DNA of 63,888 bases, the filler included, from Octopus bimaculoides (taxonomy: Eukaryota), in NCBI RefSeq assembly GCF_001194135.2. It is 7 parts of 5 records of this genome, joined end to end, with 100 filler letters (N's around TTAATTAATTAA, not from the genome) between each part and the next. Parts side by side here need not be neighbours in the genome. Positions count along the whole stretch, not along the records: positions 1 to 29,002 come from NC_068982.1; positions 29,103 to 35,136 come from NC_068983.1; positions 35,237 to 43,098 come from NC_068983.1; positions 43,199 to 49,106 come from NC_069010.1; positions 49,207 to 57,371 come from NC_068983.1; positions 57,472 to 62,583 come from NC_068981.1; positions 62,684 to 63,888 come from NW_026295991.1. One strand, given 5' to 3'. The position numbers and the translations under genes are program-made. Below the pieces are notes generated by a model. The model did not search any database. It was not told where the DNA came from and was given only the letters and a program-made list of their open reading frames with translations. Positions within the stretch are counted from its first letter, which is position 1. Every line of letters begins with the position of its first letter. Below are positions 7,785 through 63,005 of the stretch, one piece after another.

Positions 7785-8030
7785 AGGTTACAATTATTTA
7801 AAATTATAATATAGGGTATCTAAGAGATACCGCCACGCTGAAAAATAGCAGTCAAATCTTGACTCTAAACCACAATAAATGTTCATATAGCACAAAAGAA
7901 CGAAGACGAAGACAAAATAAACTAGTAAAAATAACTGGATAATTCCAGATCCCGGATTTCTGGCTTTGCATAATAAATGCTTTGCCTTCATCGGTGGAAT
8001 ATACTCAGAAAAGCACATAAATACAAATAT
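7785..8030 (-). repeat. Hammerhead-bearing repeat unit, family A copy 1
   Basis: Colinear with 8414-8640 (AGCAGTCAAA..TGACTCTAAA, CCAGATC...GCCTTCATC.GTGGAA). Confidence 0.75.
7942..8000 (-). ncRNA. Type-I hammerhead ribozyme-like motif (family A, core variant CCGAUGA)
   Basis: Minus strand: ATTCCA-CCGATGA-AGGC...GCCA-GAAA-TCCGGGA-TC-TGGAAT; perfect 6-bp helix I; one core substitution (U4 to C). Confidence 0.6.
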
Positions 8031-8413
8031 ATATATATTATTTTATATATACATNNNNNNNNNNNNNNNNNNNNNNNNNNNNNNNNNNNNNNNNNNNNNN
8101 NNNNNNNNNNNNNNNNNNNNNNNNNNNNNNNNNNNNNNNNNNNNNNNNNNNNNNNNNNNNNNNNNNNNNNNNNNNNNNNNNNNNNNNNNNNNNNNNNNNN
8201 NNNNNNNNNNNNNNNNNNNNNNNNNNNNNNNNNNNNNNNNNNNNNNNNNNNNNNNNNNNNNNNNNNNNNNNNNNNNNNNNNNNNNNNNNNNNNNNNNNNN
8301 NNNNNNNNNNNNNNNNNNNNNNNNNNNNNNNNNNNNNNNNNNNNNNNNNNNNNNNNNNNNNNNNNNNNNNNNATATATATATATATATATATATATATAC
8401 ATAATTATATAAA

Positions 8414-8640
8414 TATAATTATAATTAAGGGTACTAGAGAGGTGCCACCATGCTAGATAAAGCAGTCAAAACTGACTCTAAAACCACATCATGTATTGAT
8501 ATACCACAGCTGAGAAGAAAACTGAACCAAAAAAAAAATTAGAAAAAAATTAATGGGTAATCCCAGATCGAAGATTTATGGCTCAGTAGTAAAATACATT
8601 GCCTTCATCAGTGGAAATATACCGAAATTAGTACATAATT
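8414..8640 (-). repeat. Hammerhead-bearing repeat unit, family A copy 2
   Basis: Direct-repeat partner of 7785-8030; its first 46 bp recur inverted at 8943-8988. Confidence 0.75.
8562..8615 (-). ncRNA. Type-I hammerhead ribozyme-like motif (family A, GAAA mutated to UAAA)
   Basis: Minus strand: TCCA-CTGATGA-AGGC...GCCA-TAAA-TCTTCGA-TC-TGGG. Confidence 0.55.
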
Positions 8641-10329
8641 ATTAATTTATATATATATGATATATATATATATATATCATACGTAATAATTATTATAGAT
8701 ATATAATTATATTAATATTGAAGTATATTTGCCACTTAAATGTGGCTAATTCTTAGGGGCTGATGCTACTGTAGCTTGTATCCCCAGGAAGACATCTCTT
8801 CCAGCTGGCTATTGACACACTTTCTGTGCCCTATCAGTATTTGCAAAGGGAAGTCATCCTTCCCATCTCCAGCCTGACGTTATACACACTGGCCCGAGTT
8901 TCTGGATATTGACCTATCATATATATGTACAACTTGTTGCTATATCTAGCATGGTAGCATCTTTCTAGTACACTTAATTATAATTATACCACTATAATTA
9001 TATATCTATAGAAATTAATACCTATTCGGTTTTTTTCCATGTTGGCTACTTAACATGGCCGTTATTTTAAAACATTGTCTTATCGTTTTTATATATCAAT
9101 ATATAATCGCTCCATGTCCTCATATTCAGTGCGGCGATATTTCTGATCATATAGCACATGGTTTCAGACGGAAAAATGGATTAGTCTGGTATATACGTGC
9201 ATATATATGTATGTATACGTACGTATATGTAAATATTTGTATTTTGGTATTTATGAGATGGGAGCAACTGTCATCGAAGACTCATATTGTAGTTCAGTGC
9301 TCGAAATGAGGAGTTGACAGACAGCCGACAACCGATGAAGGGTCGTTCTTTGTGTTACTTGTCCTCTTTTTTTATTTTTTTCTCTCGTTGTTTGAGTATT
9401 TAACTCATTTATTTTCGTATTTCATGTTGGTGACGCCCTGTATCCATATATGCATACACACATATATATATACACACACGCACACATAGACACACACTGC
9501 ACACAAAACACACACATACACGCACATACACATACATATTTTATTAAACCATTTAGTTATGTATGTTAGTTATACATACACGCACACACACATACTTCAA
9601 ACTACCAGTTAAACACCTTTCTACTGACCATTCTCCTACGCACATGTAAAGGGAAACACACAACAGACAGCCACTCCTACCAAAATTTTTACTATAAATT
9701 CTCCCTACGACATTAAGCGACACAAACTCCAACCACACAAATACATAAACAGCCACAACACACAAACACATACGCACATACACGTGCTATCATTACACAC
9801 ACATACACACACACACACAGACACACACACACACACACACACAGACCTGCACGCACGCACATTCCCACACATACACACATACACCTCCTTCTCTTGCACT
9901 CTCCTGTCTTAGAAAGGATTTTTTCTGCACCCATTCCCTTCCAGTCATTTCAGTACGTGACCGCGAGGGTATCATTGTCGATTTTCTTTCTCCGTCTTCT
10001 GTCTTTAGACGTTTTCTATATTTCTGATAAAGAGCTCCGCTCGAAACGTGAAATCCTATTCAGTTCCTTTCACAGCCTTGGATTTTTATCTCATTCTGTT
10101 ATTTTTATATATATATATATATATATACACATGCTGATATATGACCTACGTTGGACTCCTCATTCGCCTAATCACCGAACCTGGAGCTTAGCTATAGTCT
10201 GTCCATAGCAATTACTCAGCATTACCTGACACCTTTGAGTCTTCTCGACACCATTACTTCTCATAACCTATATATATATATATATATATATATATATCAT
10301 TGGATGGATTCTGAGAACATTTAGAACGA

Positions 10330-60200: not shown

Positions 60201-62089
60201 AGTGCTATGTCTTTTCGTCCGACGTCACTTCGTCAAACGTCTTTTCGTCCATGTCTTTTGGTCCGACGTCTTTTTGTCCGAGGATTGCTTTTTGTCCAAC
60301 GACTTGTCCAATTTTTAATAAACTCTTTAGAAAACAAAGTGAAGTATCTCTAATGAAGTATCTCTATGACGAGCTTCGTTACAGGAGTGTTATTATCATT
60401 CTTTTTAACAGTTTTACTTTCTCTTTTTCTTCTTCTCTCTTAAGTATGGTGCTGTGTATAGAGAGTGCTGCAGATTTAGTGTACACTTTTTTAATTTGCC
60501 CATCCCGAAATGACAAAGTTCATAGTATCGGCCAAAAGCAAAAGAAATGTAGTTGATGAAAGTTATTACATTTACGATTTTCATTCAAGCAATACAAACC
60601 TAGGAAAAGAATACTAGAGATGTGAGAAAAAAAGGTTGTGTTTAGTGCGAATTCACACGGTAACGGAAAACAATGAGCCGAAAATTATTTATTTTTCTAG
60701 TGAGCATCTTCATCCAGTTGATGTAGATTCGTTAAATGCAAGAAAAGTAGTTGCTGAAGTAAAGCATGAAGCGATAGAAAACATAGTAACAAGTTCGAGT
60801 AGCATAATAGCGGCTAATTTTACGCAGCTAATAAAAAACACTTGCCCTCAACTTCCTCGTTTGTCTGTACTTTCAAGGACTATTCAAAGGTGCCGAAAGA
60901 AATTCTTGATTTCTCGCTAATTCGGGGGCTAGAACTTGTTTTGAAATAACTGAAGAAAATTGTAAATTTGATAACGGCGAACAGTTTCTGATATACGATT
61001 CGGATATCGAAGATCAACAGTGCATAATAGTATTTGCATCAGAAAGTGCTCTTTAGGATATAGCACCCTATCGTCATTGGGCATGTGATGAACCATTCAT
61101 AGTTGTACCAGAACAGTGGTTTCAACTGTTTAGCATTCATGTACAAGTTAAAGGTAACAGTTTTCTACGGGTCTTTGCGTTACTTCTGAATAAAACAAAG
61201 CCGACATACGTGGCAGATTTCGAAGTTGAAGTTTATAGGGCATTTAATTCATCATTCCCTAATTCATCTGTTGGAAATGTTTGTTTCATTTGAGCCCATT
61301 CGAAAAATTGCAGATTTAGGCCTCAAAGAAAAAACAATAAAGACTCTGAATTCTGTCTTAAAATTCGATGTTTTTCAGTATTAGCCTTCCTACCCGTTGA
61401 AAATGTCGAAGAGGCCTATGAAGAATTAATAGACGATGAAGAAATACCTGCTGAATTCACCGCTTACTTCGATTTGACTTATATAGTCGTTGTGAGAGGA
61501 CGTGTTGCTAGGCGAAGGAGAGAACCACTTACATTCTCGATAGCTGTATGAAATGTTAATCAACATATTCTTCAAGCTCTTCCCAGAACAAATAATGTTG
61601 TGGAGGGGTTTTATTCTGCGATAAAGCGTTCGGCAGGTGGAGCACATTTGAATATTTGGAAATTAATCAAAATTCTGAAGGAAGAAGAAGGTAAAATGAC
61701 TCAAATTCCTCGAGGAGATCCGTCGAATTCATGTACACGATATCGAAGAATGCTTCAAAAGATTCGTCATTGAATATGAGTCAACAAAAAAAATTGAACT
61801 TTTGGAGAGTGTGGCATATGATTTGCATCAATTTTAAATGATCATATCATTAGTTACATCTTATTACTTTTTTAAAATGACTTTTTTTAAATACATTTTT
61901 CCACAGTATTTTACTTGAATCATATCAATATAATCCCCAATGATTATTTGATTTGATGTTCACTTTGTTTTCTGAAGAGTTTATTTAAAATTGTACAAGA
62001 AGTCGTTGGACAAAAAAAAGACGTCGGACCAAAAGACTCGGACGAAGTGACGTTGGACAAGGTGACATCGGACGAAAAGTGGGGTCACA
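60201..62089 (+). mobile_element. Full-length Mutator-like element (MULE), 1889 bp, 9-bp TSD
   Basis: AGCTATAGG duplicated at 60192-60200 and 62090-62098; ~120-bp TIRs built of tandem CTTTT(C/G/T)GTCC(G/A)AC-like motifs; encloses a transposase pseudogene. Confidence 0.92.
60510..61837 (+). pseudogene. FLYWCH-domain MULE (DDE) transposase pseudogene
   Basis: YIY...Y*RC....C..RIHT...EHLH (FLYWCH), HWACDEPF.VVP.QWFQL..IH, ALL.NKT..TY, VADFE, CLFH, LAFLP, RTNNVVEGF; multiple stops and frameshifts. Confidence 0.88.
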
Positions 62090-62849
62090 AGCTATAGGTT
62101 CGTAGTAAGAAGAACTTATATAATTTAATTTTACTTATGTGCAATGTGCATCCTTTTTTTTTTCTATAATATGATTCAGGAACTTCAAAATTTTACAGCA
62201 AACTAATGTACCTATTCATTATCTATAAGAAATAAAATCAGAAGTCCATAAACTCTCAGTAAATACTTAACATGTTCTGAATCACAGGAATAAGTCATTT
62301 TTAATCCCGCTCTTTGGTTGTACAATAGCGAATAAGCCTCCAATATTGCTTATAATTTTCACTTTTACCGTTTATGAAATCAGCGTGTGATTTCAACGGA
62401 TTCCTTATAAACTGACAAAACGAACTGAGTTAAACCCTAGGCGCATCGAGAACCACTGATGAGCATTAAAATGCGTAATCCTCGATGACCTGGGTATGTT
62501 CACTGCTATATGGAGCTTACCTCTCTTGTCAGTCATTAAGATAGTACTTTCCGTGGTTATTGTTTTGACTCTTATTTCTAACANNNNNNNNNNNNNNNNN
62601 NNNNNNNNNNNNNNNNNNNNNNNNNNNTTAATTAATTAANNNNNNNNNNNNNNNNNNNNNNNNNNNNNNNNNNNNNNNNNNNNAAAACATTAATGAAAAA
62701 TGTGGCCCCCGTTTTAAAATAGATCCGGATATTCAGTTTACATTTAGGGTTTCTATTAGAATTAGCTTCATGGTCTAAGTTAATAAAGGGGTGGCGTGGG
62801 GGAGATATTGTATCCTATCACTAACTTTAAGATTGTTAGCAATTCTTCT

Positions 62850-63005
62850 TGCCTCCAAATTCATAAAGAACTCGGATACGATCTTCGTGAACTCTGATAA
62901 GACAAAAAACTTATATGCGGTTGATAAGGACGTTTATAAGCGTCTAATTTCGAACAGCATCACAGACACATACAAAAAAGACAATGCAAATTTATACAAA
63001 GAGGT
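62850..63005 (+). mobile_element. Penelope-like RT N-terminal fragment
   Basis: [33 protein letters not shown] resembles the PLE motif xxPADKTxNxYxxxxxxYxxLLxxxITxxYKK; it runs into a (TA)n tract. Confidence 0.65.

What the first reader, a model, noticed from the sequence alone, without database searches (positions are those of the whole stretch)
7785..63005. Putative Penelope-powered ribozyme retroelement ecosystem: three hammerhead families plus dispersed PLE RT and GIY-YIG parts
Seen: seven hammerhead motifs (A: 7942, 8562; B: 35613, 43997; C: 43453, 43768, 44488) in three of the seven unlinked segments. All have a very short or palindromic helix III (TCCGGGA/TCTTCGA, CAGCTG, CTCnGAG), and six of the seven have an extra or mismatched base just before GAAA. 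PLE protein remnants lie at 35930-36470, 54132-54569 and 62850-63005. Established: PLEs encode RT plus GIY-YIG and are associated with such ribozymes; retrozyme circRNAs are known from some metazoans, including molluscs. Inference: about one motif per 9 kb implies very high genome-wide copy number and several non-autonomous families. I do not know whether they have been described in cephalopods. Because the segments are unlinked, this is co-occurrence in the genome, not a gene cluster.
Basis: partly seen in the sequence, partly recalled or inferred. Interest (0 to 1): 0.8.

Follow-up and report, generated by a model that had tools for sequence, protein, structure and literature searches.

The report
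Penelope-element hammerhead ribozyme ends, octopus-like genome
The window holds nine hammerhead self-cutting RNA motifs of four families, one of them still joined to a Penelope-like jumping gene's cutting enzyme, so they are likely the leftover ends of a known kind of jumping gene rather than a new system, and only two unusually long-stemmed versions stand out.

Summary
The motifs are real: a relaxed descriptor finds 9 (the 7 reported plus a missed family D) against 0.13 in shuffles. Only 3 of the 7 keep the full core (C1-C3). A1, A2, B1 and B2 each carry one core change, but genome-wide contigs show family B's majority is intact. All three PLE protein remnants are confirmed and carry Hydra-clade marks. 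The link is physical, not mere co-occurrence: 54703->52711 reads inverted pLTR (D2), 5'-truncated GIY-YIG, spacer, sense pLTR (D1). B1 lies inverted 190 nt before another remnant; C1/C2 are a head-to-head pair. This is the published PLE architecture, and a Hydra-clade PLE with a hammerhead is already published for Octopus bimaculoides (PMC8557442, File S2). Head-to-tail retrozyme units, circular junctions and cleavage-site read ends were not seen. A and C have no ORF here, so non-autonomy stays open. Mildly new: helix II arms of 59-96 nt (B, D), and A.A/A.G mismatches beside GAAA. The scan noted similar PLE hammerhead stumps in other genomes.

The parts
7942..8000 (-). Hammerhead A1 (core CCGATGA, U4 changed; A.A mismatch next to GAAA; predicted cut after 7948) in a ~230-nt unit 7792-8023 beside (TA)n
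8561..8616 (-). Hammerhead A2 (TAAA for GAAA; predicted cut after 8566) in unit 8403-8641, 73% identical to A1's unit, between (TA)n runs
35612..35725 (-). Hammerhead B1 (U16.1 lost; 85-nt helix II arm; A.G mismatch); family homology 35560-35749; inverted relative to the PLE ORF that follows
35910..36502 (+). 5'-truncated PLE ORF remnant: RT thumb, Asn/Lys-rich linker, start of GIY-YIG; frameshifted and cut off by a LINE remnant
43416..43596 (-). Family C arm 1 with hammerhead C1 (core 43508, intact core, one helix I mismatch, cut site 43458)
43680..43903 (+). Family C arm 2 with hammerhead C2 (43768-43828, intact, GUU site at 43823) plus a 3' tail; head-to-head with arm 1, 90% identical over 186 nt
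43943..44145 (-). Family B unit with hammerhead B2 (43997-44119; A9 changed to G in this copy; 96-nt helix II arm), nested between two C insertions
44374..44451 (-). Inverted partial arm in front of C3: only the part 3' of the cut site plus the tail
44488..44550 (+). Hammerhead C3 (intact, diverged subfamily, cut site 44544), ending in (TG)n
52711..52855 (-).
52856..54131 (-). 1276-nt AT-rich (28% GC) spacer or 3' UTR between the endonuclease stop and D1; no PLE protein match
54132..54563 (-). GIY-YIG endonuclease of a Hydra-type PLE (CxCx5C, CxxC, CxH), open frame, truncated at the linker cysteines
   Evidence: (PF01541 E=5.6e-5)
54559..54703 (+). Inverted pLTR with hammerhead D2 (core 54580, two helix I changes), joined directly to the truncated ORF and ending at (TA)n; 96% identical to D1's pLTR
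62863..63009 (+). N-terminal RT fragment of a Hydra-type PLE (DKT motif), cut by (TA)n; no hammerhead in this 1.2-kb segment

Best explanation
These are nine type I hammerhead motifs, and they are likely the ribozymes carried in the end repeats (pLTRs) of several Hydra-clade Penelope-like retrotransposon families, left behind mostly as 5'-truncated, partly decayed insertions. Shown: in element D the motif lies 3' of the GIY-YIG frame and a mirror copy is fused to the truncation point; C forms head-to-head pairs; most units end at (TA)n. Inferred from PLE biology: the element's RT/endonuclease nicks AT-rich DNA and reverse-transcribes from the pLTR end, often stops early, and adds an inverted pLTR copy, so short hammerhead-bearing stumps outnumber full elements. 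In an active tandem element two hammerheads would pair through their palindromic helix III and cut the precursor RNA slowly as a dimer. The lone or opposite-strand copies here are predicted to be largely inert passengers of host transcripts.
For: Element D anatomy. P0002, 96% identical over 45 aa, has an Asn-rich linker where the window has the inverted pLTR, so the ORF is cut at that junction. Full-length relatives of 722-723 aa show RW(K/P), DKT/DKS and CxCx5C and match all three remnants, the Hydra-clade marks of PMC8557442 section 11. Published Hydra hammerheads have the same CTC-N-GAG or CAG-NN-CTG helix III, GUU/GUA sites and U.U mismatch. C1 shares 15 consecutive bases across the core with Hydra-1_oBim (by eye). 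3 of 6 related metagenome loci carry a D-like U.U hammerhead. Inverted pLTR, optional tail, 0.9-1.5 kb spacers and Asn-rich inserts are described for PLEs (PMC3846280); opposite-strand pairs 100-700 bp apart and solo copies in PMC4209133. Family B majority restores A9 (96% of depth), the GUA site (94%) and a helix I base (87%); C majority has CTCGGAG (93%). Helix III is unstable as a monomer (+2.1 to +2.4 kcal/mol in 8 of 9; no hairpin in B1) and stable as a self-duplex (-6.8 to -11.1 in 8 of 9; A2 -3.7). Two of three remnants have an antisense motif within 300 nt upstream, P about 0.001, post hoc.
Against: No PLE ORF lies next to A or C, so their parentage rests on motif likeness and architecture. 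The B1-ORF link spans 190 nt that could not be assigned, and that remnant's linker reads CxCx2C, not CxCx5C. No RT tree was built. Covariation in three C copies does not beat the shuffle control (177 of 500). Cleavage was not tested; no read-end pile-up at 43823 or 44001. Families A and D were not examined genome-wide.
Confidence: 0.82

Rival explanations
1. Families A and/or C are true non-autonomous elements: short hammerhead-pLTR units with their own fixed 5' end, copied in trans by Hydra PLE proteins (SINE-like or retrozyme-like), possibly through circular RNA.
For: No ORF beside A or C. C depth falls steeply 5' of about 43700, and A1/A2 homology starts at a similar place. C is far more abundant than B by summed depth. 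Tandem retrozymes derived from PLE pLTRs are reported in animals (10.64898/2026.07.22.740005; mussel, PMC7229834).
Against: No head-to-tail unit of intact motifs in the window. No 'goes back' joint among the 15 of 24 contig joints shown, and no RNA reads at them. Loose ends upstream of C are heterogeneous and depth rises towards the 3' end, as for 5' truncation. Head-to-head pairs are the PLE insertion signature.
Confidence: 0.14
2. The long-helix-II motifs (B, D) and the mismatch-bearing A motif no longer cut RNA and are kept as folded signals for the PLE protein.
For: A.A, A.G or U.U replace the usual G10.1-C11.1 pair. No cleavage-site ends in RNA-seq. Hammerhead mutants did not block insertion by an Anolis PLE in vitro (PMC11167929).
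Against: The family B majority keeps the catalytic boxes and an NUH site. U.U at this place is the commonest form among published Hydra motifs. Helix III is palindromic as dimer cleavage needs.
Confidence: 0.2
3. The motifs are chance matches in AT-rich repetitive DNA.
For: Rfam reports none; 4 of 9 have a core mismatch; the descriptors were tuned after seeing the motifs.
Against: 9 vs 0.13 and 5 vs 0.01 in shuffles; four multi-copy families; placement at PLE ends; the same descriptor finds motifs in 3 of 6 independent PLE loci.
Confidence: 0.01

Closest known systems
Hydra-clade Penelope-like elements and their hammerheads, incl. Hydra-1_Obim of Octopus bimaculoides (Craig et al. 2021, PMC8557442; seen: passages, section 11, supplement parts 2, 52, 53)
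   Same: DKT motif, CxCx5C linker, CxxC/CxH in the endonuclease, (TA)n targets, type I hammerhead 3' of the ORF, short palindromic helix III, GUU/GUA sites, U.U beside GAAA, 5'-truncated inverted copies; C1 shares 15 nt with the Hydra-1_oBim core region.
   Different: Four distinct families here versus one octopus family listed. Helix II arms of 59-96 nt in D and B versus loop 2 of 3-10 nt in the Hydra rows of File S2. A.A and A.G mismatches are not among those rows. 1.28-kb spacer in D.
PLE hammerheads of metazoans (Cervera and De la Pena 2014, PMC4209133; seen: parts 1-2 of 4)
   Same: Many divergent families per genome, mostly solo copies from truncated PLEs, opposite-strand pairs 100-700 bp apart, long helix II, extra base at the helix II junction, dimer-dependent helix III.
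   Different: They describe the extra base 5' of helix II and a conserved G10.1-C11.1; here it is 3' (C) or on both sides (A, B, D). Helix III has 2-3 bp plus loop, so these are not minimal motifs.
Non-LTR retrozymes (PMC7229834, passages; 10.64898/2026.07.22.740005, part 1 of 5)
   Same: Type I hammerhead with weak helix III in short non-coding repeats; present in a mollusc (mussel, about 5000 copies).
   Different: Retrozymes are head-to-tail arrays giving circular RNA; here copies are solo or head-to-head, and no tandem or circular joint was seen.

Membership tests
Type I hammerhead ribozyme | CUGANGA, GAAA and NUH core | tested here: met
   Exact in 5 of 9 (C1-3, D1, D2), one change in 4 of 9; B majority intact; A's two copies are broken at different positions
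Type I hammerhead ribozyme | Three helices with helix I open-ended | tested here: met
   (helix II arm z-scores -1.1 to -3.4 in the 7 folded)
Type I hammerhead ribozyme | Covariation of the helices | tested here: inconclusive
   47 of 48 cells paired, 1 two-sided and 4 one-sided changes, but 177 of 500 shuffles reach it; only 3 copies
Type I hammerhead ribozyme | Self-cleavage | not testable with these tools
   No end pile-up at predicted sites in standard RNA-seq; a weak negative
Hydra-clade PLE | DKG changed to DKT in the RT N-terminus | tested here: met
   SDKT in the fragment at 62863-63009
Hydra-clade PLE | C-terminal GIY-YIG with CxCx5C linker, CxxC and CxH | tested here: met
   Element D; the remnant at 36340 has CxCx2C and ends before the rest
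Hydra-clade PLE | RWK motif, no IFD | tested here: inconclusive
   Region absent from the window; RW(K/P) seen in full-length relatives P0021 and P0023
Hydra-clade PLE | Insertion into (TA)n | tested here: met
   A1, A2, B1, B2, D2 abut (TA)n; C contigs run into TA-rich sequence at 43852 and 43865
Hydra-clade PLE | Hammerhead in the pLTR 3' of the ORF | tested here: met
   Met for D; only the inverted copy for B; no ORF for A and C
Hydra-clade PLE | RT phylogeny groups with Hydra | not tested
   Only about 49 aa of RT N-terminus and a thumb piece are present
EN+ PLE insertion architecture | Inverted pLTR at a 5'-truncated end, optional tail on one arm | tested here: met
   D2/D1, C1/C2 and the arm before C3 against PMC3846280
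Non-LTR retrozyme | At least two consecutive head-to-tail units with complete hammerheads | tested here: not met
   Same-strand neighbours are A1/A2 (both broken, 73% identical) and C2/C3 (about 75%, B2 between); no head-to-tail joint in 15 of 24 shown
Non-LTR retrozyme | Circular RNA monomers | tested here: inconclusive
   No RNA joints in three runs, about 6% of each read; the library type is ill-suited

The most novel reading that the evidence does not exclude
This octopus-like genome carries one of the largest hammerhead loads of any animal (tens of thousands of copies or more) in Hydra-clade families that standard searches miss because helix II is a 59-96-nt extended stem and the pair beside GAAA is a mismatch. 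Family C has become an independent non-autonomous element, and some of its inserted arms start at the ribozyme cut site, which would be genomic evidence that PLE hammerheads define template ends in vivo.
Probability: 0.2. Interest if true: 0.58.

Novelty: new member of a known kind. Interest (0 to 1): 0.3.

Why it matters
The role of PLE hammerheads is an open question (PMC8557442, PMC11167929). These families offer natural variants (long helix II, A.A / A.G / U.U beside the core) and thousands of insertion junctions with which to ask whether cut sites mark template ends. They also show that short-loop descriptors and Rfam undercount hammerheads. The system itself (hammerheads in PLE ends, including in an octopus) is already in print.

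Tried and rejected
No whole genome was held, so there was no genome-wide descriptor search. Rfam found nothing relevant; the repeat finder was swamped by microsatellites. My first descriptor found only C2 and C3 because it limited helix II length and demanded a pair on one side. The search for homologous proteins for longer relatives gave 0 of 40 candidates. One alignment was too loose for the search for related loci. I first read 52602-52820 and 54600-54700 as protein; they are the antisense of the D pLTR. An upstream extension of the ORF into 35750-35910 was not significant, and the D spacer and the flanks of A, B2 and C1 gave no PLE match. A tenth hit at 51280 with two core mismatches was dropped as background (1.54 expected). 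The rise in contig depth near the C cut site is gradual (43803-43837) and can be explained by subfamilies with another loop 2; not used as evidence. Lunse et al. 2017 is not held; I saw only its title and a review's summary, so the mismatch and long-helix variants may already be described there. Searches for prior reports: 'hammerhead ribozyme'+'octopus', 'cephalopod'+'ribozyme' (20 of 30 listed), 'octopus'+'penelope'+'repeat' (20 of 34 listed), and mismatch terms. Only PMC8557442 linked the two; PMC13282606 has 0 occurrences of 'ribozyme'.
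Full report
Window. 63,888 bases, 59,839 of them not N, made of seven segments joined by N44-12 nt-N44 spacers; AT-rich and full of microsatellites. No genome is held. The organism is coded.

Observation. 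All seven motifs are present. A relaxed type I descriptor (helix II arm up to 110 nt, optional unpaired base on each side, helix III of 2-10 nt) gave 10 hits with at most 2 core mismatches (1.54 expected), 9 with at most 1 (0.13 expected, max 2 in 100 shuffles) and 5 with none (0.01). The nine are A1, A2, B1, B2, C1, C2, C3 and a new pair, D1 and D2. The tenth (51280) is dropped as background. The descriptors were written after seeing the motifs, but the same code found motifs in 3 of 6 independent PLE loci. The motifs lie in four clusters: A1/A2, B1, C1-C2-B2-C3 within 1.1 kb, and D1/D2.

Are the broken copies from intact families? Contigs of one DNA run laid on 43680-44255 at 80% or more gave 4,591 records. 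At B2's three deviant positions the majority restores A9 (22,400 of 23,312 depth), an A at the cut site (13,157 of 14,036) and a pairing G in helix I (17,394 of 19,904). It keeps a mismatch beside GAAA (G in 13,615 of 17,036, as in B1). For C the majority helix III is CTCGGAG (623,951 of 667,937). Only 40 of 157 variant rows were shown. Summed depth is about 306,000-494,000 over the C core and 9,500-38,900 over B, against 21-54 for the eight single contigs listed. The tool warns that this is no copy number; it suggests only orders of 10^3-10^4 (C) and 10^2-10^3 (B) at this identity. A's two copies are broken at different core positions, which fits an intact parent.

Protein parts. 54135-54593 (-) hits Pfam GIY-YIG and 3,738 library proteins. 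Using the 33 hits of 250 aa or more as tblastn queries, exactly three window regions match: thumb plus linker plus endonuclease start (35910-36502), the endonuclease (54563-54168) and an RT N-terminal piece (62863-63009). The 722-723-aa relatives show RW(K/P), DKT/DKS and CxCx5C, and the window pieces show SDKT, CxCx5C, CxxC and CxH. These are the marks given for the Hydra clade.

Link of motif and protein. On the minus strand 54703->52711 reads: (TA)n, an inverted 145-nt pLTR (D2), the ORF starting at the linker cysteines, stop at 54132, a 1,276-nt spacer, and the sense pLTR with intact D1. A 96%-identical relative carries an Asn-rich linker where the window has D2, which fixes the truncation. 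B1 stands in the same inverted position 190 nt before the second remnant; that remnant is cut by a LINE near 36500. C1/C2 are head-to-head and only C2 has a tail; C3 is preceded by an inverted arm with the tail. Arkhipova et al. 2013 describe inverted pLTRs, the optional tail, long spacers and Asn-rich inserts (this paper was a lead from an earlier scan note). Cervera and De la Pena 2014 describe solo and opposite-strand motifs from truncated PLEs.

Comparison of motifs. File S2 of Craig et al. lists Hydra hammerheads with CTC-N-GAG and CAG-NN-CTG helix III, A/C/U at the cut site and often U.U beside GAAA, and includes Hydra-1_oBim. By eye C1 shares 15 consecutive bases with it across the core, and both have an AACGGT motif upstream and a T(T/C)ACACAT-like end before TA-rich sequence. 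D matches the U.U type, also seen in L002-L004; L005 has a core variant, and L001 and L006 show no motif. What differs is the helix II arm, 59 nt in D (z -3.4) and 85-96 nt in B (z -1.9, -1.1), and A.A (A) or A.G (B) beside GAAA.

How it likely works. Shown: anatomy, intact family cores, an unstable monomer helix III and a stable self-duplex. Inferred: insertion by the PLE protein at AT-rich sites with early termination and mirror-copy formation; slow dimer cleavage in tandem precursors, as summarised in PMC6765202 and measured as low in PMC4209133. Against an active role of these copies: three RNA runs gave 575, 595 and 352 reads from about 12.9, 12.0 and 11.5 million, on both strands, 69-76% running on into unlike sequence, with no joints and one end pile-up (44056) away from the cut sites. 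This looks like read-through of host transcripts. It is a weak negative, and the same was reported for an active lizard PLE.

Retrozyme reading. Not met by the published criterion of consecutive tandem units. It cannot be fully excluded for A and C, because short contigs break at repeats and 9 of 24 joints were not shown.

Verdict. Real and correctly recognised as PLE hammerheads, but a known association, already reported once in an octopus; PLEs are known to be abundant there (PMC8967140, PMC13282606, passages). New families and modest structural variants. Interest 0.30. Supplements of the 2026 bioRxiv preprint (closed) and the text of Lunse et al. 2017 (not held) may bear on the novelty of the variants.

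Noticed in passing
window 44374-44451: The inverted arm before C3 begins within 1-4 nt of C3's predicted cut site, as if copied from the 3' cleavage product; one case only, and D2, C1 and B1 do not start there.
   Followed up: partly
window 43960-44056: RNA reads over B come mostly from a rare variant (3 contigs) with U at 11.1, giving an A-U pair, and leave the family at 44056; likely one expressed diverged locus.
   Followed up: no
window 43858-43900: The C tail has the highest depth and different upstream sequences in contigs and reads, so further C-related subfamilies share it.
   Followed up: no
window 52560-52710: Sequence continuing 3' of D1 but not D2; a candidate PLE tail, boundary not determined.
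   Followed up: no
window 31487-32385 and 41548-42392: Two DNA-transposon-like remnants with terminal inverted repeats; the mariner-like label is from recall.
   Followed up: no
window 60211-62079: Element with inverted ends and a weak FLYWCH hit (E=0.014); the Mutator-like label is from recall.
   Followed up: no
window 36974-37324 (-) and 33830-34447 (+): LINE-type RT remnants (RVT_1 E=3.7e-10 and 3.9e-6); the first belongs to the insertion that interrupts the PLE.
   Followed up: partly
window 35237-35341: A 105-nt near-perfect palindrome at the start of segment 3; real or an assembly-end artefact.
   Followed up: no
window 1-567 and 45724-46972: A 43-nt tandem satellite and a diverged tandem array; no hammerhead in either.
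   Followed up: partly
window 5158-5343, 29147-29326, 55547-55724: A dispersed ~180-nt repeat family, SINE-like.
   Followed up: no
L005 about 1660-1710: A Hydra-type locus whose hammerhead-like motif has an extra base in the first core box (CTGAATGA).
   Followed up: no
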